DNA of 64,000 nt, taken from assembly GCA_964016885.1 (NCBI GenBank), contig CAXHJY010001257.1, positions 124,001-188,000 of the forward strand, given 5' to 3'. The stretch is from Eledone cirrhosa. Taxonomy: Eukaryota. Shown here one piece after another: positions 24,649 to 63,080 of the stretch. A model generated the notes under the pieces. That model saw only the letters and a list, made by a program, of their open reading frames with translations. It did not search any database and had not been told where the DNA came from. The position numbers were made by a program, and so were the translations under genes. Every line of letters begins with the position of its first letter. The first letter of the stretch is position 1.

Positions 24649-27600
24649 CATCATCATCATCATCATCATTTTACGTCCGCCCTTCCCTGCTTGCAAGGGT
24701 GGGACGGGTCTTATTCAGTACAGCATCTCTCCACTCGTCACGGTCCCTCGTCATCTCCACCGTGAGCTTCAATGATCTGAGGTCTGTTCTCACCACCTCC
24801 GCCCATGTTTTTCGTGGTCTACCTCTACCACGTCTTCCTTCAACTGGCAATTCCTGGCACTTCTTCACCCATCGGTCATCCTCCATGCGCATCACATGTC
24901 CATACCACCTCAGTCTCCTCTCCCGTACACTACATTCTATCCCTCTCAGACACAGTTTCTCTCTCAACACATTTATGCTGGGTCATTCATGCACATTTAC
25001 ACTGCACAGCCGACGGAGCATGCTTGCCTCATTTCTCTCCAGTCGTCGCATATCCTCTGCAGTTGCTGCCCATGTCTCACTACCATGGAGCATCGCGCTC
25101 CTCACACAGGCATCATTCAACCGGCCTTTCGTACGCAGGGAGAAACCCTTCTTCGTCAACAGAGGAAGCAGCTCCCTAAACTTCTTCCAACCCGTCCTTA
25201 TTCTAGATAATATGGCCTCAGAACACCCTCCCTCCATGCTAATCTGATCTCCTAGGTACTGGAAGCTATCCACCACTTCTATAGCGCCCTCTTGCATTTG
25301 AAAAATGTGTCTATCAGTGCGACTTCTAGTGTCTAATTTCCCTGTACATCTACTGCATACATATTTCTCCCTACCTGTTAGTTTGCCTGCTATCCCGCTA
25401 CATCTCTTGTGTACCCAGGATCTGCATTGTGTGCATTTTATAGAATTTATGCCAGTTCCTTTTCTGCATACGAACATGGCCATTTCCCTGACGGAATCAG
25501 GGCTTTGTCCTCTTTTCTACTCATCAACACTTTTGTCTTAGCTAGATTCACTCTCAGTCCTCTTGCTTCCAACTGCTGTTTCCATAGCCAGAATTTATTC
25601 TCTAGCTCCTCTACTGATTCTGCTATAAGAACCAGATCGTCAGCACAGAGAAGTTCCCATGGACAGCCAGTCTTAAACTCCTCTGTTATGGCTTGGAGGA
25701 CTATAATGAACAAGAGCGGGCTGAGGACCGAACCCTGATGTACTCCTACTTGTATCTGGAATTCCTCACTAAACTCCATTCCTACCCTGACTTTACTGAG
25801 AGTACCTCTGTACAAAGTTTGCACTGTCCTCACAAGCCATTCCTCAACACCCAGCTTGCTTAGGGACCACCAGATGACAGATCGGGGTACCCTATCAAAG
25901 GCCTTCTCTAGGTCAACAAAGGCTAAGTATAGTGGCTTATTCTTCTCTAAGAACCTCTCTTGCAATTGTCTCACCAAGAAGAGGGCATCTGTTGTACTCT
26001 TCCCAGGCACAAAACCAAACTGCATCTCATCTAGTTTGACCCTTTCTCTAATTAGTTGTGCTAAAATCCTTTCTGCCACTTTCATAACCTGATCTATCAG
26101 TTTTATACCCCTATAATTGCTCCTCTCCAAAGCATCCCCTTTACCTTTGTAGCAATTTATGAGAATACTGCTGCACCAGTCTTTGGGTATGACACCACCA
26201 TATATAGCCTGATTGATGATGCGTGCAACCAGTTTAGTGCCTACGTCCCCTGATGCCTTCAGCATCTCAGCAACTATTCCCAATGGTCCGGCAGCCTTAC
26301 CATTTTTCATTTCCCTAATCGCCTCTTGGACCCTATATTCGTCAATCTCAATAGCTGGTCCCTCTGTCGGATCCACCAAGGGTAATTTCTCTCTCTCCCA
26401 TTCGTTCTCCACATTCATCACTCTCTCATAATGACATTTCCAGGCCTCCTTTTTCTGATCATTCGTGACACTAAGTACACCGGCATCATCCCGGACACAT
26501 TTATCTCCAACAACATCCTGATTTGCATTGACACACTGCCTTGAAATGTGGAACACCGCACGCCTCTGATCTTCCCGTCGCAGAACATTGGGAAACCTTC
26601 TACTCTCTGCTTCCCTGCGTGCTAAGTACACCTGACGTCTAGCTTCTCTCTTAGTGGCTGTATATTCTTCCCTACTCCCACCCTTTTTCCAAGCATTCCA
26701 TGCTAGTCTTTTGTCTCTAATAGCCTTATCTACTGTGCTGTTCCACCACCAGGTCACTCTCTGTCTGGTTGGAGCTCTGCTCCAGCCACAGGTTTCATCA
26801 GTAGCCTGCAGCAAGTTGTCACGTAAGAAATTCCAGTTATTATCTATGTCATACGTCTCTAAATCATGTTCTTTTTCGTCATATACATCTTGAAGGGCTT
26901 TCCTAAATTTGTATTTTAGTGAAAGGTCTTTTAGCTTCCAGACCTTTCTTCTCCACACCTTCCTATATGTCTCATTCCATCTTTTGCTTACTGAGATATC
27001 ACTAACAACTAACCTATGCTGTGGGGTACATTCTTCCCCAGGGTATGCCTTGGTATTAGACACTATCTGCCTGTCCCGCTGCCTAACTAGCAGGAAGTCA
27101 ATCTGGCTTATGTGCTCACCAGATTTGTAGGTTATTAGGTGATTGGCAGGTTTCTGGAAGTTTGTGTTGCAAATAGTCAATGTACCCGCATCACAAAATT
27201 CAAGAAGTCTCACTCCTTCTTCATTTCTTGAACCGTAACCGTGCCCACCATGTACCCCAGTGTAACCATCCTGGAGCTGTCCAACATGACCATTGAAGTC
27301 TCCTGCTAGCATAACAATGTCTCCGTCCTCTGTCATTGCGGTTGTTTGCAGAAGTTGCTCATAAAAGCAGTCTTTCTCATCTTTGCCTAGGCCTGCTTGG
27401 GGAGCATAGGCCGAGATGATTGTCAGTAGTCTCCTACCTACAACTAATCTAAGCTTAATTATTCGATTACTAACTCAAACTACCTCTATTGTCTTATTGA
27501 TCCATTTCTCAGCCAGGAAAATGTCTACTCCCCCTAGCCCATCATCCTTACCTACCCAGAATAGCTTATAGCTAAGACGCTTGCCTACGACTAGTCTCGC

Positions 27601-28745: not shown

Positions 28746-31700
28746 TTAACTCTTTAGTATTTACATTACTCTATATATACTATTGTATTTTCACAGTAAA
28801 GACTTTACCTCCCATAATATCTCACATAACATTTACATTACTCTAAATATACTATTGTATTGTCACAGTAAAGGCTTTACCTCACATAATATCTCACATA
28901 ACATTTACATTACTCTATATATACTATTGTATTTTCACAGTAAAGACTTTACCTCCCATAATATCTCACATAACATTTACATTACTCTAAATATACTATT
29001 GTATTGTCACAGTAAAGGCTTTACCTCACATAATATCTCACATAACATTTACATTACTCTATATATACTATTGTATTTTCACAGTAAAGACTTTACCTCC
29101 CATAATATCTCACATAACATTTACATTACTCTATATATACTATTGTATTTTCACAGTAAAGGCTTTACCTCACATAATATCTGACATAACATTTACATTA
29201 CTCTATATATACTATTGTATTTTCACAGTAAAGGCTTTACCTCACATAATATCTCACATAACATTTACATTACTCTATATATACTATTGTATTTTCACAG
29301 TAAAGACTTTACCTCCCATAATATCTCACATAACATTTACATTACTCTATATATACTATTGTATTTTCACAGTAAAGGCTTTACCTCACATAATATCTGA
29401 CATAACATTTACATTACTCTATATATACTATTGTATTTTCACAGTAAAGGCTTTACCTCACATAATATCTCACATAACATTTACATTACTCTATATATAC
29501 TATTGTATTTTCACAGTAAAGGCTTTACCTCACATAATATCTGACATAACATTTACATTACTCTATATATACTATTGTATTTTCACAGTAAAGGCTTTAC
29601 CTCACATAATATCTGACATAACATTTACATTACTCTAAATATACTATTGTATTGTCACAGTAAAGGCTTTACCTCACATAATATCTCACATAACATTTAC
29701 ATTACTCTATATATACTATTGTATTTTCACAGTAAAGACTTTACCTCCCATAATATCTCACATAACATTTACATTACTCTAAATATACTATTGTATTGTC
29801 ACAGTAAAGGCTTTACCTCACATAATATCTCACATAACATTTACATTACTCTATATATACTATTGTATTTTCACAGTAAAGACTTTACCTCCCATAATAT
29901 CTCACATAACATTTACATTACTCTATATATACTATTGTATTTTCACAGTAAAGGCTTTACCTCACATAATATCTGACATAACATTTACATTACTCTATAT
30001 ATACTATTGTATTTTCACAGTAAAGGCTTTACCTCACATAATATCTCACATAACATTTACATTACTCTATATATACTATTGTATTTTCACAGTAAAGGCT
30101 TTACCTCACATAATATCTCACATAACATTTACATTACTCTATATATACTATTGTATTTTCACAGTAAAGGCTTTACCTCACATAATATCTGACATAACAT
30201 TTACATTACTCTATATATACTATTGTATTTTCACAGTAAAGGCTTTACCTCACATAATATCTCGCATAACATTTACATTACTCTATATATACTATTGTAT
30301 TTTCACAGTAAAGGCTTTACCTCACATAATATCTCACATAACATTTACATTACCCTATATATACTATTGTATTTTCACAGTAAAGACTTTACCTCACATA
30401 ATATCTCACATAAAATTTACATTACCCTATATATACTATTGTATTTTCACAGTAAAGACTTTACCTCACATAATATCTCACATAACATTTACATTACTCT
30501 ATATATACTATTGTATTTTCACAGTAAAATCCTTACCTCACATAATATCCCACATAACATTTACATTACTCTATATATACTATTGTATTTTCACAGTAAA
30601 GGCTTTACCTCACATAATATCTCACATAACATTTACATTACTCTATATATACTATTGTATTTTCACAGTAAAGGCTTTACCTCACATAATATCTCACATA
30701 ACATTTACATTACTCTATATATACTATTGTATTTTCACAGTAAAGGCTTTACCTCACATAACATTTACATTACCCTATATATACTATTGTATTTTCACAG
30801 TAAAGGCTTTACCTTACATAATATCTTACATAACATTTACATTACTCTATATATACTATTGTATTTTCACAGTAAAGGCTTTACCTTACATAATATCTTA
30901 CATAACATTTACATTACTCTATATATACTATTGTATTGTCACAGTAAAGGCTTTACCTCACATAATATCTCGCATAACATTTACATTACTCTATATATAC
31001 TATTGTATTTTCACAGTAAAGGCTTTACCTCACATAATATCTCACATAACATTTACATTACTCTATATATACTATTGTATTTTCACAGTAAAGGCTTTAC
31101 CTCACATAATATCTCACATAACATTTACATTACCCTATATATACTATTGTATTGTCACAGTAAAGGCTTTACCTCACATAATATCTCACATAACATTTAC
31201 ATTACTCTATATATACTATTGTATTTTCACAGTAAAGACTTTACCTCACATAATATCTCACATAACATTTACATTACTCTATATATACTATTGTATTTTC
31301 ACAGTAAAGGCTTTACCTCACATAATATCTCACATGACATTTACATTACTCTATATATACTATTGTATTTTCACAGTAAAATCCTTACCTCACATAATAT
31401 CTCACATAACATTTACACTACTCTATATATACTATTGTATTTTCACAGTAAAGTCTTTACCTCACATAACATTTACATTACTCTATATATACTATTGTAT
31501 TGCCACAGTAAAGGCTTTACCTCACATAATATCTCACATAACATTTACATTACTCTATATATACTATTGTATTTTCACAGTAAAGACTTTACCTCACATA
31601 ATTATCTCACATAACATTTACATTACTCTATATATACTATTGTATTCTCACAGTAAAGGCTTTACCTCACATAATATCTCACATAACATTTACATTACTC

Positions 31701-31905
31701 TATATATACTATTGTATTTTCACAGTAAAGGCTTTACCTCACATAATATCTCACATAACATTTACATTACTCTATATATACTATTGTATTGTCACAGTAA
31801 AGGCTTTACCTCACATAATACCTCACATAACATTTACATTACTCTATATATACTATTGTATTGTCACAGTAAAGGCTTTACCTCACATAATATCTCACAT
31901 AACAT
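28746..31905 (+). repeat. 72-bp satellite, block 1 (about 44 units), starting at a TTAA plus TIR-like sequence
   Basis: Unit actctatatatactattgtattttcacagtaaaggctttacctcacataatatctcacataacatttacatt; 24-aa periodic ORFs. Confidence 0.96.
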
Positions 31906-32116
31906 CTCGTATACGAGAGACGTGTGTTGACGTGTGTGAACAAGCTCGGCTACCGAGTCGGATTTACTTACTCAAAAAGTGAGTTTTGATTAATTTTTTT
32001 ATACTGTAATATACGTTAACCCCTTGCCTTGGTCGTCAAACTTTGAGTTTATTTATTTTCGCCCCTTTTTGGGGCGAATTTTCCAGTTAAAAATTTATTA
32101 CGGCAAACTAATAGAA

Positions 32117-33859
32117 ATGGACGGAATTTTCACATCTCATCCTAACGTGAAAGCCACGCCCCCTAAGAAAGGTGATACAGAGAAGCTAGAAGCACAAGGC
32201 TCTAAGTCTTCCCTCCTGACTTCTGCAAAAGAAACATGGAACACGGAATTAAAAGAAAAATTTGAAAAAATGGGTGAAAACACAGAAAGTCACATAAACG
32301 CAGACAAAAACAACAACGACAATAACAGCAATAGTCACAACACCAACCAAGGAAAAAATAACGATAACACCAAACAAAGCGAACCCACTACTGGTACCTC
32401 CTTTGCACAGGCGGTCCGGAAAACACAAACCTGCAAGCAACTGGACATTACAACTCTGAGAGAAAAGATGAAGGAAGCGAAACAGTATGTAACTTTCAAA
32501 GAAGGAGGAGACTTCACAATCACCTCCCCACAAGAAATCAAAAGAGACACGACGCTAAGAACGATATCTTTCAGAACAATTTCCAACATAACAAGGAAAC
32601 CAACTCAATTATCCCAAAAAGAGATTGAGCTGGTCCTAAAAAATGTGTGGAGTGATATATCGTTCATACAAAAAGGGCCACTCTATGGGAATATAACGGT
32701 CCTAATGAAGGATCAATTGACGGCCAGGAAATACTCTGTGGCACCAATTGTTTCCAAGCTACATACATTTTTCCCCACATATTTAGGGAAAAGAACGCAG
32801 AAGATAAGGGTCTCCGGAATCCGGCCAAATGCATGCATTTCCTGGGTACTAACAGGGTTTTTAGAAGACGAGGACGGAATCCTCTCAGTAGGAGAAGTCA
32901 CCACAGACGTTTTCGGCGGTTTGAGCGTGGAGGTTCTGGTCCAAATGAGACCAGAACGAATCGCTAGAATACCACAGAGGGTGTCCCTCGATGGAGAAAC
33001 ATTTATATATATTTCAGCCGAGGGTAGGAGGCCCATATGTTACTACTGTTCAAGCAGGGGTCATCTAAGGGCTGCTTGTCCTCAATTGACAAAAAAAAAG
33101 GCTCTTTTGCCTACACCCCACACACCACCACCGCCACCACCACCACCACCACCACCTCCACCACCACCACCACAACAACAACAAAAACAACAGGGAAAAA
33201 TAACACAAGACACGGCCCCACCCAAAACAACTCCCAAAACACACACAAATACAACAAAACCCCAAAATACACCACTACCCGACAGCACGGACGAGGACCC
33301 AGCGGAAACGGCACCTAGTGACGAAGAGGGGGAACCCTTCCAACCTGTAAAAAGGAAAAAAAGAAAGCACCACTCGAACATAAACGAAACAAACACACAA
33401 CCACCAACAAAAACAAAACAAACAGAACAAACAAAATCCGCCCCACCCCAAAACATAACACATACAACAAAACGTAAGCACACACAAGAACAACAAACAA
33501 ACACAACACAAATAAAACAGTATACATACATTAACACAAATAACAAAGAACTAGTAAAAACAATACACAAAGACCCTTTGGTGGAAACTGAAGGACAATT
33601 CTTTGCAAGCGCGGCCAACAAACCGCATTTAAAAATGATAAGACTCCCAATGGACACCTATGCAAAACTAAGAGAGAACTTTCCTGAGGACGTGGGGAAA
33701 ACATGTACTCGACCCTATAACCGCGTCCTCTTGAAACGTTTCCCCACCCACACCTCACCAAACACCCCCACTCCACCACAGAACAACACCCCACCAAACA
33801 ACCCCTCCAATACGCCCATGGATATTGTGCAACCTGCTCCTCAGGAGCCGAACAGGTAG
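32117..33859 (+). CDS. Tx1-type ORF1p (about 580 aa) with a gag-like CCHC zinc knuckle and poly-Pro/Gln tract
   Basis: First ATG at 32117; CYYCSSRGHLRAAC fits CX2CX4HX4C; SFAQAV motif; basic KRKKRK patch. Confidence 0.9.
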   Translation: MDGIFTSHPNVKATPPKKGDTEKLEAQGSKSSLLTSAKETWNTELKEKFEKMGENTESHINADKNNNDNNSNSHNTNQGKNNDNTKQSEPTTGTSFAQAVRKTQTCKQLDITTLREKMKEAKQYVTFKEGGDFTITSPQEIKRDTTLRTISFRTISNITRKPTQLSQKEIELVLKNVWSDISFIQKGPLYGNITVLMKDQLTARKYSVAPIVSKLHTFFPTYLGKRTQKIRVSGIRPNACISWVLTGFLEDEDGILSVGEVTTDVFGGLSVEVLVQMRPERIARIPQRVSLDGETFIYISAEGRRPICYYCSSRGHLRAACPQLTKKKALLPTPHTPPPPPPPPPPPPPPPPQQQQKQQGKITQDTAPPKTTPKTHTNTTKPQNTPLPDSTDEDPAETAPSDEEGEPFQPVKRKKRKHHSNINETNTQPPTKTKQTEQTKSAPPQNITHTTKRKHTQEQQTNTTQIKQYTYINTNNKELVKTIHKDPLVETEGQFFASAANKPHLKMIRLPMDTYAKLRENFPEDVGKTCTRPYNRVLLKRFPTHTSPNTPTPPQNNTPPNNPSNTPMDIVQPAPQEPNR

Positions 33860-33880
33860 GTCCTTCCTCTTTTAACCAAC

Positions 33881-36800
33881 ATGGCTGATATAAGAGTTGG
33901 GTGTCTGAATGTACGTGGCCTGGGACTGTCTTGGAAACAAGGCAAACTTTTAAACGATCTCAGGTCGCATAGAATGGATGTAATGGCTATTTGCGAGTCC
34001 AGGATCAGCAGCGAGCACCAACTGGCGCCCCTCTTCGACGACTTTGAGATCTTCGCATCTCTCTGTCAACCGGGGGGTGGGGGTGGAGTTGTCGTTCTGC
34101 TGCGAAAACACCTGGGCCTCGCCATACAGAAGGTGCACCTGGACCCGGAGGGTCGACTGGTGGTTTTAGACGTCGGCAGTAGTGAAAGTGGAGCCCTTAG
34201 ACTAATAGCTGTGTACGCCCCTTTTTGGGCAGCGCGGCCGGAATACTTCCAACGTCTGGAAACTTTTCTGGGAACGTCCCGCTCCTTGCTTTTAGTGGGG
34301 GACTGGAATGGTATCCTGGATGCACGTTGGGACTATGTAGGGGCATGTGCCAATAGAGGGGGGTGTAAAAGCCTCAAAAGGTTAATCGGCCGATTTGACC
34401 TGGCCGATAGATATCGACTAGATTTTCCGACTGTACCACTATGGACGTGGACCAATCGCAGTGGAACATCTAGGTCGTACCTAGATAGGGTCCTAGTTAG
34501 AGAGAACGATAGGGACACATTTAGCTGTCCAAAAATGTTCATGGTTGACTATTCGGATCACAAGTTAGTGACCTGCATAGCCAACCTTGATAGAAGCCAT
34601 AGACAGGGACCCGGTTACTGGAAGCTGAACTTGTCCTTACCGAGAAGCAAAGCTTACAGTAAACGGATTAGCACGTTAGTCAAGCAGAGTTTGACAGGGG
34701 CAATTGTCAACAACAGGTGGTGGAGCTCTCTTAAGAGAGCAATTAGAATAGAATCGATAGGTTTTAGTCAGGAATTAGCAAGGGATAGGAACAAGACGGA
34801 AAGGGAATTAGTAGATAGAGTAGAAGAGGCGATTAGGAGTGGCAATGTAGCCGGCGTGCTGGCATCAAGAATGGCCTTAGACCAGTTCTTTGAGGTGAAG
34901 CATGAAGGCTGCGTTGTCAGGAGTAAAATACGTGCTCTGGGTAATGAGGGAGCCAAAGCTGTAAGCTGGGCCCGAGTGACAGAGGCAAAAAGTGGGAACA
35001 AGTCCACGATTCGGTCTTTGAAGGACCAGGATGGGCGTGTGATCCTTGAACCTGGGCAGATGTGTGCGGCCTTTCAGCGGCACTTTGCACGACTGTTCGA
35101 GAGGGGCGGCGCGCCGGGTGAGACTATGGATTTCAATCCATACCTCGACGGTCTGCCGCGCCTCTCGGACGCGGAGGCGAAGTCCTGCGAAAGGACGATT
35201 TCAGCTGCTGAGATAGGGGTGGCGCTGAGCCAATGCGGCAAACGCAAATCCCCGGGTCTCGATGGTCTACCATACGAGCTATATGTAGCGATGCCGGACT
35301 TGTTCTCCGATATCCTCGAAGCGGTCTACTGCAACTGGCAGCAGAACGGGAGAATTCCCAGTTCTGTGACCAAGGGCGTAGTTACGCTGGTGAGGAAGGA
35401 TGAGAACAAGGGGGATGACATAAGTAACTTCAGGCCCATAACTCTGCTAAATACAGAGTTAAAGATTTTGGCCAAGGTGTTAGCGAAGAGGTTGGCGCTT
35501 GTCGTTGGAAACCTGGTGGGAGAAGCGCAGACATGCGCAATCCCGTCCAGGTCCATTCACGACAATCTCCACCTTATGCGATACATCATAGAGAGGGTAG
35601 GGAATGAACCCGGCTTTGGTGGGGCCCTGATCAACTTGGATCAATCTAAAGCTTTCGATAGGGTTGACCATCGTTACCTGGATGCGGTGCTCGCGGCGGC
35701 AGGCTTCGGACCCGTTTTCAGGGGTTGGATTGCTGCGATGCACAGCAGCAACGTCTGCTCAAGGGTCAAGGTGAACGGCCACCTCTCGGAGCCGTTCCAA
35801 ATCATGCGATCCATCCGACAGGGATGCCCTCTCTCCTCCCTACTGTATGTGCTGGCTCTTGAGCCCCTACTGCGGAAGTTGGAGCGGTTGCAGGGCATCC
35901 CTTTGGAACCGGGATTGCAGAAAGCGGCGTCGGCCTACGCCGATGACGTGACAGTAATGGTGTCGAAAACCTCGCAAATCGGTGAGATCGGCACCTTACT
36001 GGAGGAATATGAAAGGTTTACAGGAGCCAAGCTGAACCGGGACAAGTCCGTCGGTTTGCAACTCGGAACATGGAGAGGCAAACCGATGCCCTCCAACGAC
36101 GTCGTCGGACGCTGGACGGAGGGCCCGGTGAAGCTGCTTGGGGTCTGGTTCGGACCAGACCTCCAGGTGGAGAAAAACTGGAACGAGGTAACGGCCAGGG
36201 TGTTTGCACTCACCCAGAAGTGGGCCCAGTGCAAACTATCCCTGAAAGGTCGAGCGGAGGTGGCGAATACTTATATAGCATCCGTCATCTACTACCGCTT
36301 GACCGTCGTGCCTTGCCCAGTGAAAAGACTCGCCAAAATGGAGTGCGCGCTGTTCCAATTTCTTTGGAACAAGCGGACCCCTTTGGTGAGGAGATCCATC
36401 TGCTGTCAACACCCTTCGAAAGGAGGGCTGGGGATGCCGTGGCTACAGATGCGTAAACACGCATTAAGGCTACGGCACCTCCAGGTATTCCTCACCGGTC
36501 AACCGGTGTGGGCCCCGTTTGTGAGGCGAGCCTTTCCCAGACTCGTCTCGCTCACCGAGCTGCAATCCTGGGTCAAGCAAAGACCGAGAAAAGTGGGCGA
36601 CTGGCACATTGAATGTGCCCAGGCGCTCACGGCCCTCTGGAAAGCGGACCCGGCAATCAGTGGAGACTCCACCTCGACATTCTATAGAGGGTTGGTACGC
36701 AGCAGGTGCGACGATGCTCTCGGAGAAGCTCTAGGCATGGAGGAAGATGAACTGGCCAGTCTGTTCGGTAGGACGTTTGGCCCTGGACCGATGGACAACT

Positions 36801-37318
36801 TCCAAAAGTCCCTGGCTTGGCAGTGCTACCGAGGGGCTCTACCCGTTCGAGACAAGCTCCACAGGCATGGGAGCCTGGGTAGAGATCCTTTGAATAAGAT
36901 CTGTCCGAGATGCGTGCATGATGACGAAACCGTTGCGCACGCATTCGTACACTGCCCAGGCATTGCTGACCTGTGGGGCTATGTGGAACGACTACTGTCG
37001 AGGGTGGGACCAATCCGGTTGACCACCGAGTCCATTGTCACGATCAAACCGCCTCCCCCTTTCAAAAACGAAGGAGAGGCGGTTTTTCTCTGTGTGGTAG
37101 CCATGGCTAAAGAAGTTGTATGGTGGACGAGGCTGAAAGGGCTGAGGTCAGACACCTTTCTCTCCGGCCAACAACTGGTCCCCTTTTTCAAATACCATTT
37201 TAAAAGAAGGATCAGAATGGAGAGAGAGGTGCTCTACCCCAGCAAGTTTTATGAAAGGTGGGTGAAAGTAGGGAGAATGGCCAGAGTGAATGGGTCTTCT
37301 CTCTATATCAGCCTGTAG
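33881..37318 (+). CDS. ORF2p: AP-like endonuclease, reverse transcriptase, C-terminal CCHC finger (1145 aa)
   Basis: LNVRGL, VYAP, GDWN, SYLDRV, SDH; SPGLDG, FRPITLLN, DQSKAFDRV, RQGCPLS, YADD; CPRC...ETVAHAFVHC. Confidence 0.96.
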   Translation: MADIRVGCLNVRGLGLSWKQGKLLNDLRSHRMDVMAICESRISSEHQLAPLFDDFEIFASLCQPGGGGGVVVLLRKHLGLAIQKVHLDPEGRLVVLDVGSSESGALRLIAVYAPFWAARPEYFQRLETFLGTSRSLLLVGDWNGILDARWDYVGACANRGGCKSLKRLIGRFDLADRYRLDFPTVPLWTWTNRSGTSRSYLDRVLVRENDRDTFSCPKMFMVDYSDHKLVTCIANLDRSHRQGPGYWKLNLSLPRSKAYSKRISTLVKQSLTGAIVNNRWWSSLKRAIRIESIGFSQELARDRNKTERELVDRVEEAIRSGNVAGVLASRMALDQFFEVKHEGCVVRSKIRALGNEGAKAVSWARVTEAKSGNKSTIRSLKDQDGRVILEPGQMCAAFQRHFARLFERGGAPGETMDFNPYLDGLPRLSDAEAKSCERTISAAEIGVALSQCGKRKSPGLDGLPYELYVAMPDLFSDILEAVYCNWQQNGRIPSSVTKGVVTLVRKDENKGDDISNFRPITLLNTELKILAKVLAKRLALVVGNLVGEAQTCAIPSRSIHDNLHLMRYIIERVGNEPGFGGALINLDQSKAFDRVDHRYLDAVLAAAGFGPVFRGWIAAMHSSNVCSRVKVNGHLSEPFQIMRSIRQGCPLSSLLYVLALEPLLRKLERLQGIPLEPGLQKAASAYADDVTVMVSKTSQIGEIGTLLEEYERFTGAKLNRDKSVGLQLGTWRGKPMPSNDVVGRWTEGPVKLLGVWFGPDLQVEKNWNEVTARVFALTQKWAQCKLSLKGRAEVANTYIASVIYYRLTVVPCPVKRLAKMECALFQFLWNKRTPLVRRSICCQHPSKGGLGMPWLQMRKHALRLRHLQVFLTGQPVWAPFVRRAFPRLVSLTELQSWVKQRPRKVGDWHIECAQALTALWKADPAISGDSTSTFYRGLVRSRCDDALGEALGMEEDELASLFGRTFGPGPMDNFQKSLAWQCYRGALPVRDKLHRHGSLGRDPLNKICPRCVHDDETVAHAFVHCPGIADLWGYVERLLSRVGPIRLTTESIVTIKPPPPFKNEGEAVFLCVVAMAKEVVWWTRLKGLRSDTFLSGQQLVPFFKYHFKRRIRMEREVLYPSKFYERWVKVGRMARVNGSSLYISL

Positions 37319-37555
37319 GTGAAAGAAGAGGAAAAAGAGGAGACGAGGGAAGCACCTACTCTTTGTGCTCCTGAGGAGAAGGGTTACACATTTTTTCCGG
37401 GGTGTGTGCGACCCATGTTAATGCCCCCTCCCTATTGAGGACTTCGTTTGTTGTTGTTATTTCATTGTTATATTTTTGTACTCGTTAATTATATGTAAAC
37501 TTCCCCCCTTGTATCTGTCCCTACCTTTTGTGCCCTAGTGGCAAATAAAGAAACC

Positions 37556-39050
37556 ACTCTATATATACTATTGTATTGTCACAGTAAAGGCTTTACCTTA
37601 CATAATATCTCACATAACATTTACATTACTCTATATATACTATTGTATTTTCACAGTAAAGGCTTTACCTTACATAATATCTTACATAATATTTACATTA
37701 CTCTATATAGACTATTGTATTTTCACAGTAAAGGCTTTACCTTACATAATATCTTACATAATATTTACATTACTCTATATATACTATTGTATTGTCACAG
37801 TAAAGGCTTTACCTCACATAATACCTCACATAACATTTACATTACTCTATATATACTATTGTATTGTCACAGTAAAGGCTTTACCTCACATAATACCTCA
37901 CATAACATTTACATTACTCTATATATACTATTGTATTGTCACAGTAAAGGCTTTACCTCACATAATATCTCGCATAACATTTACATTACTCTATATATAC
38001 TATTGTATTGTCACAGTAAAGGCTTTACCTCACATAATATCTCACATAACATTTACATTACTCTATATATACTATTGTATTGTCACAGTAAAGGCTTTAC
38101 CTCAAATAATATCTCACATAACATTTACATTACTCTATATATACTATTGTATTGTCACAGTAAAGGCTTTACCTCACATAATACCTCACATAACATTTAC
38201 ATTACTCTATATATACTATTGTATTGTCACAGTAAAGGCTTTACCTCACATAATACCTCACATAACATTTACATTACTCTATATATACTATTGTATTGTC
38301 ACAGTAAAGGCTTTACCTCACATAATATCTCACATAACATTTACATTACTCTATATATACTATTGTATTGTCACAGTAAAGGCTTTACCTCACATAATAT
38401 CTCACATAACATTTACATTACTCTATATATACTATTGTATTGTCACAGTAAAGGCTTTACCTCACATAATACCTCACATAACATTTACATTACTCTATAT
38501 ATACTATTGTATTGTCACAGTAAAGGCTTTACCTCACATAATATCTCACATAACATTTACATTACTCTATATATACTATTGTATTTTCACAGTAAAGGCT
38601 ATACCTTACATAATATCTTACATTACTCTATATAGACTATTGTATTTTCACAGTAAAGGCTTTACCTCACATAATATCTCACATAACATTTACATTACTC
38701 TATATATACTATTGTATTTTCACAGTAAAGACTTTACCTCACATAATTATCTCACATAACATTTACATTACTCTATATATACTATTGCATTCTCACAGTA
38801 AAGGCTTTACCTCACATAATATCTCACATAACATTTACATTACTCTATATATACTATTGTATTTTCACAGTAAAGGCTTTACCTCACATAATATCTCGCA
38901 TAACATTTACATTACTCTATATATACTATTGTATTGTCACAGTAAAGGCTTTACCTCACATAATACCTCACATAACATTTACATTACTCTATATATACTA
39001 TTGTATTGTCACAGTAAAGGCTTTACCTCACATAATATCTCACATAACAT
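37556..39050 (+). repeat. 72-bp satellite, block 2 (about 21 units)
   Basis: Same unit as block 1. Confidence 0.96.
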
Positions 39051-39261
39051 CTCGTATACGAGAGACGTGTGTTGACGTGTGTGAACAAGCTCGGCTACCG
39101 AGTCGGATTTACTTACTCAAAAAGTGAGTTTTGATTAATTTTTTTATACTGTAATATACGTTAACCCCTTGCCTTGGTCGTCAAACTTTGAGTTTATTTA
39201 TTTTTGCCCCTTTTTGGGGCGAATTTTCCAGTTAAAAATTTATTACGGCAAACTAATAGAA

Positions 39262-41005
39262 ATGGACGGAATTTTCACATCTCATCCTAACGTGAAAGCC
39301 ACGCCCCCTAAGAAAGGTGATACAGAGAAGCTAGAAGCACAAGGCTCTAAGTCTTCCCTCCTGACTTCTGCAAAAAGAAACATGGAACACGGAATTAAAA
39401 GAAAAATTTGTAAAAATGGGTGAAAACCCAGAAAGTCACATAAACGCAGACAAAAACAACAACGACAATAACAGCAATAGTCACAACACCAACCAAGGAA
39501 AAAATAACGATAACACCAAACAAAGCGAACCCACTACTGGTACCTCCTTTGCACAGGCGGTCCGGAAAACACAAACCTGCAAGCAACTGGACATTACAAC
39601 TCTGAGAGAAAAGATGAAGGAAGCGAAACGGTATGTAACTTTCAAAGAAGGAGGAGACTTCACAATCACCTCCCCACAAGAAATCAAAAGAGACACGACG
39701 CTAAGAACGATATCTTTCAGAACAATTTCCAACATAACAAGGAAACCAACTCAATTATCCCAAAAAGAGATTGAGCTGGTCCTAAAAAATGTGTGGAGTG
39801 ATATATCGTTCATACAAAAAGGGCCACTCTATGGGAATATAACGGTCCTAATGAAGGATCAATTGACGGCCAGGAAATACTCTGTGGCACCAATTGTTTC
39901 CAAGCTACATACATTTTTCCCCACATATTTAGGGAAAAGAACGCAGAAGATAAGGGTCTCCGGAATCCGGCCAAATGCATGCATTTCCTGGGTACTAACA
40001 GGATTTTTAGAAGACGAGGACGGAATCCTCTCAGTAGGAGAAGTCACCACAGACGTTTTCGGCGGTTTGAGCGTGGAGGTTCTGGTCCAAATGAGACCAG
40101 AACGAATCGCTAGAATACCACAGAGGGTGTCCCTCGATGGAGAAACATTTATATATATTTCAGCCGAGGGTAGGAGGCCCATATGTTACTACTGTTCAAG
40201 CAGGGGTCATCTAAGGGCTGCTTGTCCTCAATTGACAAAAAAAAAGGCTCTTTTGCCTACACCCCACACACCACCACCGCCACCACCACCACCACCACCA
40301 CCTCCACCACCACCACAACAACAACAACAAAAACAACAGGGAAAAATAACACAAGACACGGCCCCACCCAAAACAACTCCCAAAACACACACAAATACAA
40401 CAAAACCCCAAAATACACCACTACCCGACAGCACGGACGAGGACCCAGCGGAAACGGCACCTAGTGACGAAGAGGGGGAACCCTTCCAACCTGTAAAAAG
40501 GAAAAAAAGAAAGCACCACTCGAACATAAACGAAACAAACACACAACCACCAACAAAAACAAAACAAACAGAACAAACAAAATCCGCCCCACCCCAAAAC
40601 ATAACACATACAACAAAACGTAAGCACACACAAGAACAACAAACAAACACAACACAAATAAAACAGTATACATACATTAACACAAATAACAAAGAACTAG
40701 TAAAAACAATACACAAAGACCCTTTGGTGGAAACTGAAGGGCAATTCTTTGCAAGCGCGGCCAACAAACCGCATTTAAAAATGATAAGACTCCCAATGGA
40801 CACCTATGCAAAACTAAGAGAGAACTTTCCTGAGGACGTGGGGAAAACATGTACTCGACCCTATAACCGCGTCCTCTTGAAACGTTTCCCCACCCACACC
40901 TCACCAAACACCCCCACTCCACCACAGAACAACACCCCACCAAACAACCCCTCCAATACGCCCATGGATATTGTGCAACCTGCTCCTCAGGAGCCGAACA
41001 GGTAG
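39262..41005 (+). pseudogene. ORF1 of copy 2 with a +1 frameshift in an A-run near 39372; downstream frame 39416-41005 is open
   Basis: ttctgcAAAAAgaaac versus ttctgcAAAAgaaac in copy 1; could be a homopolymer sequencing error. Confidence 0.8.
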
Positions 41006-41026
41006 GTCCTTCCTCTTTTAACCAAC

Positions 41027-44000
41027 ATGGCTGATATAAGAGTTGGGTTTCTGAATGTACGTGGCCTGGGACTGTCTTGGAAACAAGGCAAACTTTTAAA
41101 CGATCTCAGGTCGCATAGAATGGATGTAATGGCTATTTGCGAGTCCAGGATCAGCAGCGAGCACCAACTGGCGCCCCTCTTCGACGACTTTGAGATCTTC
41201 GCATCTCTCTGTCAACCGGGGGGTGGGGGTGGAGTTGTCGTTCTGCTGCGAAAACACCTGGGCCTCGCCATACAGAAGGTGCACCTGGACCCGGAGGGTC
41301 GACTGGTGGTTTTAGACGTCGGCAGTAGTGAAAGTGGAGCCCTTAGACTAATAGCTGTGTACGCCCCTTTTTGGGCAGCGCGGCCGGAATACTTCCAACG
41401 TCTGGAAACTTTTCTGGGAACGTCCCGCTCCTTGCTTTTAGTGGGGGACTGGAATGGTATCCTGGATGCACGTTGGGACTATGTAGGGGCATGTGCCAAT
41501 AGAGGGGGGTGTAAAAGCCTCAAAAGGTTAATCGGCCGATTTGACCTGGCCGATAGATATCGACTAGATTTTCCGACTGTACCACTATGGACGTGGACCA
41601 ATCGCAGTGGAACATCTAGGTCGTACCTAGATAGGGTCCTAGTTAGAGAGAACGATAGGGACACATTTAGCTGTCCAAAAATGTTCATGGTTGACTATTC
41701 GGATCACAAGTTAGTGACCTGCATAGCCAACCTTGATAGAACCCATAGACAGGGACCCGGTTACTGGAAGCTGAACTTGTCCTTACCGAGAAGCAAAGCT
41801 TACAGTAAACGGATTAGCACGTTAGTCAAGCAGAGTTTGACAGGGGCAATTGTCAACAACAGGTGGTGGAGCTCTCTTAAGAGAGCAATTAGAATAGAAT
41901 CGATAGGTTTTAGTCAGGAATTAGCAAGGGATAGGAACAAGACGGAAAGGGAATTAGTAGATAGAGTAGAAGAGGCGATTAGGAGTGGCAATGTAGCCGG
42001 CGTGCTGGCATCAAGAATGGCCTTAGACCAGTTCTTTGAGATGAAGCATGAAGGCTGCGTTGTCAGGAGTAAAATACGTGCTCTGGGTAATGAGGGAGCC
42101 AAAGCTGTAAGCTGGGCCCGAGTGACAGAGGCAAAAAGTGGGAACAAGTCCACGATTCGGTCTTTGAAGGACCAGGATGGGCGTGTGATCCTTGAACCTG
42201 GGCAGATGTGTGCGGTCTTTCAGCGGCACTTTGCACGACTGTTCGAGAGGGGCGGCGCGCCGGGTGAGACTATGGATTTCAATCCATACCTCGACGGTCT
42301 GCCGCGCCTCTCGGACGCGGAGGCGAAGTCCTGCGAAAGGACGATTTCAGCTGCTGAGATAGGGGCGGCGCTGAGCCAATGCGGCAAACGCAAATCCCCG
42401 GGTCTCGATGGTCTACCATACGAGCTATATGTAGCGATGCCGGACTTGTTCTCCGATATCCTCGAAGCGGTCTACTGCAACTGGCAGCAGAACGGGAGAA
42501 TTCCCAGTTCTGTGACCAAGGGCGTAGTTACGCTGGTGAGGAAGGATGAGAACAAGGGGGATGACATAAGTAACTTCAGGCCCATAACTCTGCTAAATAC
42601 AGAGTTAAAGATTTTGGCCAAGGTGTTAGCGAAGAGGTTGGCGCTTGTCGTTGGAAACCTGGTGGGAGAAGCGCAGACATGCGCAATCCCGTCCAGGTCC
42701 ATTCACGACAATCTCCACCTTATGCGATACATCATAGAGAGGGTAGGGAATGAACCCGGCTTTGGTGGGGCCCTGATCAACTTGGATCAATCTAAAGCTT
42801 TCGATAGGGTTGACCATCGTTACCTGGATGCGGTGCTCGCGGCGGCAGGCTTCGGACCCGTTTTCAGGGGTTGGATTGCTGCGATGCACAGCAGCAACGT
42901 CTGCTCAAGGGTCAAGGTGAACGGCCACCTCTCGGAGCCGTTCCAAATCATGCGATCCATCCGACAGGGATGCCCTCTCTCCTCCCTACTGTATGTGCTG
43001 GCTCTTGAGCCACTACTGCGGAAGTTGGAGCGGTTGCAGGGCATCCCTTTGGAACCGGGATTGCAGAAAGCGGCGTCGGCCTACGCCGATGACGTGACAG
43101 TAATGGTGTCGAAAACCTCGCAAATCGGTGAGATCGGCACCTTACTGGAGGAATATGAAAGGTTTACAGGAGCCAAGCTGAACCGGGACAAGTCCGTCGG
43201 TTTGCAACTCGGAACATGGAGAGGCAAACCGATGCCCTCCAACGACGTCGTCGGACGCTGGACGGAGGGCCCGGTGAAGCTGCTTGGGGTCTGGTTCGGA
43301 CCAGACCTCCAGGTGGAGAAAAACTGGAACGAGGTAACGGCCAGGGTGTTTGCACTCACCCAGAAGTGGGCCCAGTGCAAACTATCCCTGAAAGGTCGAG
43401 CGGAGGTGGCGAATACTTATATAGCATCCGTCATCTACTACCGCTTGACCGTCGTGCCTTGCCCAGTGAAAAGACTCGCCAAAATGGAGTGCGCGCTGTT
43501 CCAATTTCTTTGGAACAAGCGGACCCCTTTGGTGAGGAGATCCATCTGCTGTCAACACCCTTCGAAAGGAGGGCTGGGGATGCCGTGGCTACAGATGCGT
43601 AAACACGCATTAAGGCTACGGCACCTCCAGGTATTCCTCACCGGTCAACCGGTGTGGGCCCCGTTTGTGAGGCGAGCCTTTCCCAGACTCGTCTCGCTCA
43701 CCGAGCTGCAATCCTGGGTCAAGCAAAGACCGAGAAAAGTGGGCGACTGGCACATTGAATGTGCCCAGGCGCTCACGGCCCTCTGGAAAGCGGACCCGGC
43801 AATCAGTGGAGACTCCACCTCGACATTCTATAGAGGGTTGGTACGCAGCAGGTGCGACGATGCTCTCGGAGAAGCTCTAGGCATGGAGGAAGATGAACTG
43901 GCCAGTCTGTTCGGTAGGACGTTTGGCCCTGGACCGATGGACAACTTCCAAAAGTCCCTGGCTTGGCAGTGCTACCGAGGGGCTCTACCCGTTCGAGACA

Positions 44001-44464
44001 AGCTCCACAGGCATGGGAGCCTGGGTAGAGATCCTTTGAATAAGATCTGTCCGAGATGCGTGCATGATGACGAAACCGTTGCGCACGCATTCGTACACTG
44101 CCCAGGCATTGCTGACCTGTGGGGCTATGTGGAACGACTACTGTCGAGGGTGGGACCAATCCGGTTGACCACCGAGTCCATTGTCACGATCAAACCGCCT
44201 CCCTTTTTCAAAAACGAAGGAGAGGCGGTTTTTCTCTGTGTGGTAGCCATGGCTAAAGAAGTTGTATGGTGGACGAGGCTGAAAGGGCTGAGGTCAGACA
44301 CCTTTCTCTCCGGCCAACAACTGGTCCCCTTTTTCAAATACCATTTTAAAAGAAGGATCAGAATGGAGAGAGAGGTGCTCTACCCCAGCAAGTTTTATGA
44401 AAGGTGGGTGAAAGTAGGGAGAATGGCCAGAGTGAATGGGTCTTCTCTCTATATCAGCCTGTAG
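41027..44464 (+). CDS. ORF2p of copy 2 (APE-RT-zinc finger, 1145 aa, intact)
   Basis: Same motifs as copy 1; six amino-acid differences seen. Confidence 0.96.
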   Translation: MADIRVGFLNVRGLGLSWKQGKLLNDLRSHRMDVMAICESRISSEHQLAPLFDDFEIFASLCQPGGGGGVVVLLRKHLGLAIQKVHLDPEGRLVVLDVGSSESGALRLIAVYAPFWAARPEYFQRLETFLGTSRSLLLVGDWNGILDARWDYVGACANRGGCKSLKRLIGRFDLADRYRLDFPTVPLWTWTNRSGTSRSYLDRVLVRENDRDTFSCPKMFMVDYSDHKLVTCIANLDRTHRQGPGYWKLNLSLPRSKAYSKRISTLVKQSLTGAIVNNRWWSSLKRAIRIESIGFSQELARDRNKTERELVDRVEEAIRSGNVAGVLASRMALDQFFEMKHEGCVVRSKIRALGNEGAKAVSWARVTEAKSGNKSTIRSLKDQDGRVILEPGQMCAVFQRHFARLFERGGAPGETMDFNPYLDGLPRLSDAEAKSCERTISAAEIGAALSQCGKRKSPGLDGLPYELYVAMPDLFSDILEAVYCNWQQNGRIPSSVTKGVVTLVRKDENKGDDISNFRPITLLNTELKILAKVLAKRLALVVGNLVGEAQTCAIPSRSIHDNLHLMRYIIERVGNEPGFGGALINLDQSKAFDRVDHRYLDAVLAAAGFGPVFRGWIAAMHSSNVCSRVKVNGHLSEPFQIMRSIRQGCPLSSLLYVLALEPLLRKLERLQGIPLEPGLQKAASAYADDVTVMVSKTSQIGEIGTLLEEYERFTGAKLNRDKSVGLQLGTWRGKPMPSNDVVGRWTEGPVKLLGVWFGPDLQVEKNWNEVTARVFALTQKWAQCKLSLKGRAEVANTYIASVIYYRLTVVPCPVKRLAKMECALFQFLWNKRTPLVRRSICCQHPSKGGLGMPWLQMRKHALRLRHLQVFLTGQPVWAPFVRRAFPRLVSLTELQSWVKQRPRKVGDWHIECAQALTALWKADPAISGDSTSTFYRGLVRSRCDDALGEALGMEEDELASLFGRTFGPGPMDNFQKSLAWQCYRGALPVRDKLHRHGSLGRDPLNKICPRCVHDDETVAHAFVHCPGIADLWGYVERLLSRVGPIRLTTESIVTIKPPPFFKNEGEAVFLCVVAMAKEVVWWTRLKGLRSDTFLSGQQLVPFFKYHFKRRIRMEREVLYPSKFYERWVKVGRMARVNGSSLYISL

Positions 44465-44701
44465 GTGAAAGAAGAGGAAAAAGCGGAGACGAGGGAAGCA
44501 CCTACTCTTTGTGCTCCTGAGGAGAAGGGTTACACATTTTTTCCGGGGTGTGTGCGACCCATGTTAATGCCCCCTCCCTATTGAGGACTTCGTTTGTTGT
44601 TGTTATTTCATTGTTATATTTTTGTACTCGTTAATTATATGTAAACTTCCCCCCTTGTATCTGTCCCTACCTTTTGTGCCCTAGTGGCAAATAAAGAAAC
44701 C

Positions 44702-45643
44702 ACTCTATATATACTATTGTATTTTCACAGTAAAGGCTTTACCTCACATAATATCTCACATAACATTTACATTACTCTATATATACTATTGTATTGTCAC
44801 AGTAAAGGCTTTACCTCACATAATACCTCACATAACATTTATATTACTCTATATATACTATTGTATTGTCACAGTAAAGGCTTTACCTCACATAATATCT
44901 CACATAACATTTACATTACTCTATATATACTATTGTATTGTCACAGTAAAGGCTTTACCTTACATAATATCTCACATAACATTTACATTACTCTATATAT
45001 ACTATTGTATTTTCACAGTAAAGGCTTTACCTTACATAATATCTTACATAATATTTACATTACTCTATATAGACTATTGTATTTTCACAGTAAAGGCTTT
45101 ACCTCACATAATATCTCTCATAACATTTACATTACTCTATATAGACTATTGTATTTTCACAGTAAAGGCTTTACCTCACATAATATCTCACATAACATTT
45201 ACATTACTCTATATATACTATTGTATTTTCACAGTAAAGACTTTACCTCACATAATTATCTCACATAACATTTACATTACTCTATATATACTATTGTATT
45301 CTCACAGTAAAGGCTTTCCCTCACATAATACCTCACATAACATTTACATTACTCTATATATACTATTGTATTCTCACAGTAAAGGCTTTACCTCACATAA
45401 TACCTCACATAACATTTACATTACTCTATATATACTATTGTATTGTCACAGTAAAGGCTTTACCTCACATAATATCTCACATAACATTTACATTACTCTA
45501 TATATACTATTGTATTGTCACAGTAAAGGCTTTACCTCACATAATACCTCACATAACATTTACATTACTCTATATATACTATTGTATTCTCACAGTAATG
45601 GCTTTACCTTACATAATATCTTACATAATATTTACATTACTCT
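44702..45643 (+). repeat. 72-bp satellite, block 3 (about 13 units)
   Basis: Same unit as block 1. Confidence 0.96.
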
Positions 45644-46079
45644 TCGGCCCGTTTTTCTTCATTCCTGGCTGCACGCCGTCGCCGCTGTACTTCACTGTTT
45701 GATAAAGTCGAATTGCTCTTACTTTCTGTGGAACGCTGCACGCACGCACACACACATAAACATACGCGCACGTACATACACGCGTACACATGGTAATAGT
45801 TACAGCGTTCACTTTGCCTCTCTGTTTCTTACTCTCCCCTCTCACTCCCTCATTGGCATTATACATATTAATTTAAGTTTGGCGTCGTTGAGGTGGGCAG
45901 AGTCGTTTGAAACCTATGAACCAATGATAATCGAGAATTATGACACACGGAATACTGACATTGTTGAAATTAATATATAGATATATATATGTATATAAAA
46001 GGTAAACAGAAATAACAACACTCAGTACAGTATATGGAAGGTATATATTAAGTTAACGCTTGACATAGCAGGAAGAGGG

Positions 46080-46332: not shown

Positions 46333-46897
46333 CATCATCATCATCATCATCATTTTACGTCCGCTTTTCCCTGCTTGCAAGGGTGGGACGGGTCTTATTC
46401 AGCACAGCATCTCTCCACTCGTCACGGTCCTTCGTCATCTCCACCGTGAGCTTCAATGATCTGAGGTCTGTTCTCACCACCTCTGCCCATGTTTTTCGTG
46501 GTCTACCTCTACCACGTCTTCCTTCAACTGGCATTTCCTGGTACTTCTTCACCCATAGGTCATCCTCCATGCGCATCACATGTCCATACCACCGCAGTCT
46601 CCTCTCCCGTACACTACATTCTATCCCTCTCAGACACAGTTTCTCTCTCAACACATTTATGCTGGGTCGTTCACGCACATTGACATTGCACATCCAATGG
46701 AGCATGCTTGCCTTATTTCTCTCCAGCCGTCGCATATCCTCTGCAGTTGCTGCCCATGTCTCACTACCATGCAGCATCGCGCTCCTCACATAGGCATCAT
46801 ATAACCGGCCTTTCGTATGTAGGGAGAAACCCTTCTTTGTCAACAGAGGAAGCAGCTCCCTAAACTTCTTCCAACCCGTCCTTATTCTAGATAATAT
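46333..46897 (-). mobile_element. 5'-truncated copy of the RTE-2 family with (GAT)n tail
   Basis: Closely matches 24649-25212. Confidence 0.92.
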
Positions 46898-46914
46898 GGC
46901 CATTATATACCATT

Positions 46915-47442
46915 ATGTATCAGCTTACGCACCCCAATCAGGGTTGCCAGACGAACTTAAGGATAGGTTTTACGAGTCCCTAATGCACACTACTGCTCTA
47001 ACAAACGACAATGACTTCCTAATCATCGCAGGAGATTTTAACGGACACGTAGGTAAACACAGTGACTGCTTCTATAGAGTCCATGGAGGCCACGGTTTTG
47101 GCCCAAGAAATGAAGAAGGATTCAGAGTTCTAGAATTCTGCGACGCCAATGACATGTTGATATGTAACACAAACTTCTAGCTGCAAAAGGCTTCTCCCTC
47201 AAAATGAAAGGCAGACTGTATGATGCGTGTATCCGAACAGCAATGTTACATGGTAGTGAGACCTGGGCGCTGAAGGTGGAAGACTTACGTAGATTAAAGA
47301 GAAACGAAGCCTGCATGCTCCGATGGATGTGTAATAGTAATATACGCGAACGACAAAGCATAAATGAATTGAGAGAGAGACTGAGCATAAGAGGAATCAA
47401 ATGCTGTGTGCAGGAGAGGCGGTTGCGTTGGTATGGACATGT
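46915..47442 (+). mobile_element. Internally deleted RTE fragment, with an APE segment fused to a C-terminal segment
   Basis: SAYAPQ...GDFNGHVG...ICNTNF joined near 47178 to LAAKGFSLKMKGRLYDAC...RRLRWYGH. Confidence 0.85.
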
Positions 47443-62960: not shown

Positions 62961-63080
62961 GTACTGTCTGTCTAAGGTCCCTGTTGGGTCCTGTATATAT
63001 AAAGCCAGGGAGTACTGTCTGTCTAAGGTCCCTGTTGGGTCCTGTATATATAAAGCCAGGGAGTACTGTCTAAGGTCCCG
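62961..63080. repeat. Short 51-bp tandem repeat (about 2.3 copies)
   Basis: gtactgtctgtctaaggtccctgttgggtcctgtatatataaagccaggga. Confidence 0.85.

What the first reader, a model, noticed from the sequence alone, without database searches (positions are those of the whole stretch)
28746..45643. Two intact Tx1-clade retrotransposons at the identical nucleotide of a MITE-derived 72-bp satellite: candidate satellite-targeting LINE
Seen: both 5.65-kb copies are full length with open ORF2. Each interrupts the unit as ...cataacat|element|actctatat... in the same orientation. They are the only intact elements in a window of decayed ones. Known: the Tx1 clade contains many sequence-specific APE elements, and Xenopus Tx1L inserts into internal tandem repeats of a TTAA-flanked non-autonomous DNA transposon (Tx1D). 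Inference: this may be a parallel LINE-in-MITE-satellite system in an invertebrate with a new target sequence. The two copies alone do not prove specificity, because the flanks suggest duplication (see the flank-haplotype finding).
Basis: partly seen in the sequence, partly recalled or inferred. Interest (0 to 1): 0.85.

Follow-up and report, generated by a model that had tools for sequence, protein, structure and literature searches.

The report
Octopod LINE targeting a MITE-derived satellite
A young jumping gene, probably from an octopus, sits at the same base of a 72-base repeat that matches the end of a small DNA transposon, and sequencing data show nearly all of its copies running into that same repeat, so it is likely a site-specific element of a kind already known from frogs and crocodiles.

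Summary
Two 5.65-kb APE-RT LINEs (17 differences) interrupt the 72-bp array at the same base, with a 7-nt target loss, no duplication and no poly(A). ORF2 is open in both, but copy 2 has an ORF1 frameshift. The unit is 88% identical to one end of a 200-bp TTAA-flanked MITE in this window. The pair alone is weak evidence: the upstream flanks match (rank 1 of 73 sites), though the downstream flanks do not, so local duplication is likelier (about 0.6). Public runs carry the case. In a deep run, family depth is about 2,560 in the 3' UTR and 2,506 just past the junction. A second organism has the same junction. Sister families share the tail but run into (TATC)n. Most copies look full length. Best reading: a target-specific, Tx1-like LINE whose RNA likely carries target sequence. 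Passive amplification with the repeat is not excluded, and Tx1 membership could not be tested by tree. Known parallels are Xenopus Tx1L in Tx1D and crocodilian Tx1-Mar. The scan noted what looks like this system twice before on other pieces of this genome.

The parts
28746..28767 (+). TTAA and terminal-repeat-like end of a non-autonomous DNA transposon (MITE) that leads into the array
   Evidence: Matches the MITE-like end at 5123 (21 of 23 nt). Contigs and reads with varied outer flanks show the same end before the unit (loose ends at 37556).
28759..31905 (+). 72-bp satellite, segment 1 (44 units)
31906..37555 (+). LINE copy 1, full length, both ORFs open
31905..31918 (.). 14-bp perfect palindrome at the 5' junction (same in copy 2)
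   Evidence: the first 115 nt fold at z -3.3; no Rfam match
32117..33859 (+). ORF1 of copy 1, 580 aa, one CCHC knuckle at aa 308
   Evidence: (zf-CCHC E 0.007, below cut-off)
33881..37318 (+). ORF2 of copy 1, 1,145 aa: APE endonuclease, reverse transcriptase (YADD), C-terminal Cys-His motif
37319..37555 (+). 3' UTR with AATAAA at 37544-37549; tail shared with sister families up to 37553; CC at 37554-37555 is not in the common target unit
37556..39050 (+). 72-bp satellite, segment 2 (21 units)
39051..44701 (+). LINE copy 2, full length; ORF1 frameshifted at 39372; ORF2 (41027-44464) open
44702..45643 (+). 72-bp satellite, segment 3 (13 units); its first six units look like the empty-site version of copy 1's context; no second MITE end follows
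60441..60640 (-). Separate 200-bp TTAA-flanked MITE whose end is homologous to the 72-bp unit (outside the finding; shows the unit's origin)

Best explanation
This is a young, multicopy, two-ORF APE-RT LINE of a probable octopod whose copies nearly all end at one base of a 72-bp sequence from the end of a TTAA-flanked MITE, likely because its endonuclease nicks that site and its RNA, predicted to carry a little target sequence at its ends, anneals there to prime insertion. Shown: the anatomy, the junctions, the MITE homology, and the shared 3' junction in public runs. Inferred: AATAAA lies 6 nt before the element end, so 3' cleavage would fall inside the downstream unit; the RNA would then end in target sequence, pair with the nicked strand and give a fixed junction without poly(A), as proposed for R1Bm and SART1. 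Inferred: upstream satellite on the RNA would give uniform, full-length 5' junctions with a fixed 7-nt loss, as in many R2 elements. The two copies in this window most likely (about 0.6) come from one insertion plus a local tandem duplication, otherwise (about 0.4) from a second target-primed event.
For: (1), run X1, 286 contigs laid: depth 2,565-2,583 at 37460-37479, 2,506 at 37560-37569 and 2,209 at 37570-37573. (2), run X2: one contig at depth 37, against 41-57 for the family-level contigs along the element body, runs from the 3' UTR 12 nt into the target. (3), run X5 (another organism label): one contig spans the junction with 1 difference in 284 nt. (4) Sister families share the tail to 37553 and then run into (TATC)n (X5, 1 contig) or a mixed consensus (X7, 26 contigs, agreement 0.55), which looks like target switching. 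(5) Majority-contig depth is nearly flat: 2,027 near the 5' end and 2,487 near the 3' end in X1. (6) Family variation leans synonymous: 6 of 11 ORF1 differences between copy 1 and the run majority, against 26% expected, p 0.04; three intermediate-frequency sites in RAD reads (89%, 71%, 44%) are all synonymous. (7) The 3' flanks of the two copies differ (rank 46-50 of 72-74 sites). (8) Precedent: PMC4494074, PMC7265360 (passages), PMC3774820 (abstract).
Against: The evidence is contig depth, not counted loci; the tool warns that summed depth is no copy number, and 156 loose-end rows,901 were not shown. No 5'-truncated copy joined to the satellite appeared among the rows shown. No listed contig bridged the 5' junction. 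The synonymous bias is marginal (5 of 9, p 0.055, on the one contig whose differences are all listed), and organism A may not be the window's species or population. The two window copies differ neutrally (3 of 13 codon changes synonymous) and share their upstream flank. There is no RNA or enzyme evidence.
Confidence: 0.75

Rival explanations
1. Passive amplification: one or a few old insertions were multiplied at the DNA level with the satellite or as a LINE-in-MITE composite, so the shared junction reflects descent and not targeting.
For: Copies are mostly full length with one junction, no duplication and no poly(A). The upstream five units of copy 2 are the best match to those of copy 1 among 73 sites (2 differences, median 12). 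Differences between the two copies look neutral.
Against: Synonymous lean in family variation. The 3' flanks differ, so duplication needs a later three-unit change starting close to an element 3' end. No second MITE end was found after the array. Sister families keep the tail and change target.
Confidence: 0.17
2. Specificity comes mainly from RNA-target pairing or local DNA structure (an AT-rich unit, 27% GC) with a loosely specific endonuclease, so the element prefers the unit without a sequence-reading nuclease.
For: The AATAAA position predicts target sequence on the RNA. The fixed CC before the target looks RNA-templated. In SART1, target-like sequence on the RNA raised accurate initiation from 36% to 76% (PMC7265360, passages).
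Against: Tx1L endonuclease nicks almost only at its site (PMC1950540, passages). One-base precision at close to 100% of depth is easier to reach with a specific nick.
Confidence: 0.08

Closest known systems
Xenopus laevis Tx1L in Tx1D
   Same: APE-RT LINE at a fixed site in a non-autonomous piggyBac-type (TTAA) transposon (PMC4494074, PMC1950540, passages).
   Different: Here the host is a probable octopod, the target is a 72-bp sub-terminal MITE sequence grown into a 78-unit array, and there is a 7-nt target loss. A target duplication for Tx1L is recalled, not read.
Crocodilian Tx1-Mar, Tx1-9_AMi and SINEU-2/3 (PMC4494074, passages)
   Same: Tx1 families that prefer positions inside DNA transposons; SINEU-2B copies carry a 5' extension derived from the target transposon, and transcription from flanking target is proposed.
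   Different: Those targets are Mariner and Harbinger elements, and the preference is for a region. Here it is one base of a tandem unit.
Kibi, Koshi and satellite-targeting Tx1 families (PMC4494074, passages and Fig. 3 legend)
   Same: Tandem repeats as targets; the legend lists 'Sat, satellites' among known Tx1 targets.
   Different: Kibi and Koshi use (TC)n and (TTC)n. I did not see which satellites the legend refers to.
R2 with upstream 28S on its RNA (PMC3774820, abstract); R1Bm and SART1 (PMC7265360, passages)
   Same: Target sequence on the RNA gives uniform 5' junctions (R2) or accurate 3' priming (R1Bm, SART1): the mechanism proposed here.
   Different: Different clades and targets; R2 uses an HDV-like ribozyme, and no Rfam match was found here.

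Membership tests
APE-type non-LTR retrotransposon, L1 group | ORF2 with APE endonuclease, RT and C-terminal Cys-His motif | tested here: met
   Pfam hits; motifs GDWNG, SDH, YADD and a Cys-His motif; human L1 ORF2p E 1.5e-52 against R2 E 4e-23
APE-type non-LTR retrotransposon, L1 group | ORF1 with a nucleic-acid-binding module | tested here: met
   CCHC knuckle at aa 308; Atlas neighbours at 0.90-0.92 carry zf-CCHC, some RRM or ZCCHC3-type domains
Tx1 clade | RT groups with reference Tx1 families in a tree or by RTclass1 | not testable with these tools
   No protein labelled Tx1 among the listed hits; the nearest named hit is an Argonauta hians hypothetical protein, 68% in the RT region
Target-specific family (criterion of PMC4494074: over 20% of flanks of one type) | Shared flank type at the 3' junction | tested here: met
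   About 98% of family depth continues 5-14 nt into the target and 86% to 18 nt (X1); measured by contig depth, not by counted loci
Target-specific family | Independent insertions (5'-truncated copies or unrelated flank haplotypes at the same site) | tested here: inconclusive
   None among the rows shown; the window pair shares upstream but not downstream flanks
Target-specific family | Endonuclease nicks the target site | not testable with these tools
   Needs a nicking assay
Non-autonomous piggyBac-like MITE (the target) | TTAA at both ends and CCC-starting inverted ends | tested here: inconclusive
   The element at 60441-60640 has TTAA at both ends with imperfect inverted ends; the array has only one such end; the CCC rule is recalled; no transposase partner was sought

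The most novel reading that the evidence does not exclude
The LINE builds its own landing array. It is transcribed from inside the satellite, carries several upstream 72-bp units on its RNA and delivers them with each insertion. Copy 2 would be such an event: its upstream five units match copy 1's, its downstream units do not, and three units appear on both of its sides. Satellite growth here would then be partly driven by retrotransposition.
Probability: 0.2. Interest if true: 0.75.

Novelty: new member of a known kind. Interest (0 to 1): 0.42.

Why it matters
It adds a young family with an intact copy and a sharply defined, non-essential target in an invertebrate. Sister families with the same tail use other repeats, so comparing their endonucleases would test how APE LINEs change targets. 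The missing poly(A), the fixed 7-nt loss and the high share of full-length copies make it a clean test of target-on-RNA integration outside R1 and R2. The principle (a Tx1-type LINE inside a DNA transposon or repeat) is already published.

Tried and rejected
No whole genome is held for this window, so flanks could not be tabulated by locus. No RNA holder was listed, which says nothing on expression. Run X6 had only 2 contigs on the 3' stretch and none across the junction. The metagenome scan gave 71 distant loci, none carrying any of three 12-14-nt MITE or unit words. Rfam over 31700-37700 gave 4 matches, all far below gathering score, so no ribozyme was found. The 3' end folds no better than shuffles (z 1.75 and 0.04). 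No second MITE end was found after the array. Two sequence look-ups in earlier findings and one by place returned nothing, so I could not confirm that the earlier loci are this exact family. A chimeric copy 2 is not indicated: 10 differences lie in the 5' half and 6 sites in the 3' half. A 209-bp target duplication at copy 2 was considered; the three-unit stretch is not unique (another match with 1-2 differences at 38348, of 60 stretches). ORF2 variant sites with heavy cover from diverged relatives were left out of the synonymous test. Searches gave mostly unrelated papers.

Full report
Observation. The array has three segments of 44, 21 and 13 units of 72 bp. Two elements interrupt it at 31906-37555 and 39051-44701; they differ at 17 of 5,656 positions. 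Both sit as ...CATAACAT|element|ACTCTATAT..., so the unit lacks TTACATT. There is no target duplication and no poly(A); AATAAA ends 6 nt before the element end. ORF2 is open in both (1,145 aa; APE, RT and zf-RVT). ORF1 is open in copy 1 (580 aa, one CCHC knuckle) but ends at codon 54 in copy 2 after an extra A. The nearest solved relative is human L1 ORF2p (E 1.5e-52). The nearest named protein is from Argonauta hians (68% in the RT region), which points to an octopod host. No labelled Tx1 sequence was among the listed hits, so the Tx1 label rests on architecture and behaviour, not on a tree.

The target. The array begins with TTAA and an end that matches another MITE-like end at 5123 in 21 of 23 nt. 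A separate 200-bp element at 60441-60640 has TTAA at both ends; one end matches the unit at 88% over 58 nt (E 1e-15), the other matches the 5123 end at 88% over 42 nt. In public runs, contigs and reads that enter the unit from outside show the same TTAA end with varied outer flanks (loose ends at 37556: 30 contigs in X2, 2,309 reads in X18). So the unit is a sub-terminal MITE sequence that exists dispersed and in arrays, and the LINE sits 22 nt in from the start of the TTAA. The array's right side ends at 45643 with no second MITE end. Calling the MITE piggyBac-like rests on TTAA and a CCC start, a rule that I recall.

Are the two copies independent? Probably not. The five units upstream of copy 2 are the best match to those upstream of copy 1 among 73 sites (2 differences, median 12), and include a 73-bp variant found in 3 of 78 units. 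Differences between the copies look neutral (3 of 13 codon changes synonymous, 26% expected). But the downstream flanks do not match (rank 46 of 74 over three units, 50 of 72 over five). The first six units after copy 2 look like the empty version of copy 1's site: the 209 nt after copy 2 differ at 1 position from the 209 nt before copy 1, and at 13 from those after copy 1. Duplication therefore needs a later three-unit change that starts near an element 3' end. A second retrotransposition that carried upstream units needs no such change, but it must land in the same array, which is unlikely if targets are many. I put duplication at about 0.6. One further point against pure duplication: copy 1's letter at 32857 may be shared with up to 11% of family reads in one RAD run (4,108 of 36,968 reads lack the majority A; their letter was not shown, and most reads come from one stack).

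The family. One search listed 20 runs, 14 of which hold the stretch or part of it. I laid 7 of the 20: X1, X2, X3 and X18 on the whole element, and X1, X5, X6 and X7 on the last 284 nt. In X1, majority contigs have depth 1,959-2,487 along the element while diverged single pieces have 5-28, which suggests roughly 100-250 copies; this is a rough inference, and the tool warns against reading depth as copy number. Depth is nearly flat (X1 2,027 near the 5' end and 2,487 near the 3' end; X3 2,167 and 2,696), so most copies look full length. At the 3' junction in X1, depth is 2,565-2,583 in the family-specific UTR, 2,506 at 5-14 nt into the target and 2,209 at 15-18 nt. In X2, a contig of depth 37 crosses 12 nt into the target. 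In X5, a different organism label, one contig of depth 12 spans the junction with 1 difference. X7 gives 226-337 before and 266 after the junction, which is noisy. X6 was uninformative. Related families match the tail to 37553 and then run into (TATC)n (X5, 1 contig) or a mixed consensus (X7, 26 contigs). The tables are cut (156 and 2,901 loose-end rows, and 269 joints, not shown), so rare off-target copies and 5'-truncated copies could be hidden.

Targeting or hitch-hiking? A shared junction could come from descent. Against that, differences between copy 1 and the run majority in ORF1 are synonymous in 6 of 11 (p 0.04; 5 of 9, p 0.055, on the one contig with all differences listed), and three intermediate-frequency RAD sites are all synonymous. 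That is what selection on active lineages gives, but it is marginal, and organism A may differ from the window's species. Two earlier notes of this scan (e1-8671301, e1-9516603) report a Tx1 LINE at one base of a 72-bp repeat on other pieces of this genome. They are unchecked leads, and sequence look-ups did not link them.

Mechanism. Shown: junction anatomy, MITE origin, shared 3' junction. From established knowledge: APE LINEs insert by target-primed reverse transcription, and Tx1L endonuclease nicks almost only its own site (PMC1950540, passages). Inferred: cleavage 10-30 nt after AAUAAA (a recalled rule) would fall inside the downstream unit, so the RNA ends in target sequence, pairs with the nicked strand and leaves no poly(A); R1Bm needs downstream target for accurate priming (PMC7265360, passages). 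The fixed CC before the target, where the unit has TT, fits an RNA-templated end. Inferred: upstream target on the RNA would explain uniform full-length 5' junctions, as in R2 elements that cleave upstream in 28S (PMC3774820, abstract); SINEU-2B carries such a target-derived extension (PMC4494074, passages). The idea that the RNA carries its landing site came from e1-8671301; the AATAAA spacing and the flank asymmetry are my own tests. No ribozyme was found and no RNA data were available.

Known and new. PMC4494074 (passages) lists Tx1 in the non-autonomous piggyBac Tx1D, Tx1-Mar in Mariner-N4_AMi, Kibi and Koshi in microsatellites, and satellites among known targets. PMC13282606 (passages) counts 13 recently active L1-Tx1 families with 421 insertions in Octopus vulgaris and has no occurrence of 'target' or 'satellite' in its main text. 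Searches listed no paper on this target. I did not open any supplement, and Repbase was not available, so the family may already be catalogued. Christensen 2000 and Garrett 1989 were seen only in reference lists. Verdict: a real, likely site-specific family, a new member of a known kind, interest 0.42.

Noticed in passing
window 60441-60640: 200-bp MITE with TTAA at both ends; its unit-like end lacks 19 nt between two ACTCT words compared with the array start.
   Followed up: yes
window 5123-5164: Another copy of the MITE's other end; no matching far end was found nearby.
   Followed up: partly
window 61324-62337: 53-bp satellite (19 units); six units carry an exact 13-nt match to the MITE terminal sequence, so it may be a second satellite born from a MITE end.
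   Followed up: partly
window 31905-32020: 14-bp perfect palindrome at the LINE's 5' junction; the first 115 nt fold better than all 200 shuffles (z -3.3), but the effect drops to z -1.2 when 16 nt of satellite are added.
   Followed up: partly
window 37490-37549: Depth rises sharply over parts of the LINE tail in runs X1, X5 and X7 (up to 225,000 in X7), so abundant elements share this tail; this fits the SINE-LINE pairing in e1-9580941.
   Followed up: partly
window 33852-33881: Between ORF1 and ORF2 (21 nt apart) there is a splice-donor-like word over the ORF1 stop and a pyrimidine tract before the ORF2 ATG, like the cassette in e1-9540324.
   Followed up: no
window 3172-4629 and 54498-55582: The same 48-bp satellite occurs twice in opposite orientation; a 51-bp satellite at 8190-10287 has a look-alike at 62961-63071.
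   Followed up: no
window 20170-23112 and 24983-27474 (minus strand), 46355-47440: Broken endonuclease-RT LINEs of another kind; one frame has a PHD-like hit after the RT.
   Followed up: partly
window 45644-45800: The array ends abruptly in CpG-rich sequence with no match elsewhere in the window apart from simple repeats.
   Followed up: partly
run X5: A different organism label holds a 99.6% identical 3' end with the same junction at low depth (12); a close species, a low-copy family and contamination cannot be told apart.
   Followed up: no
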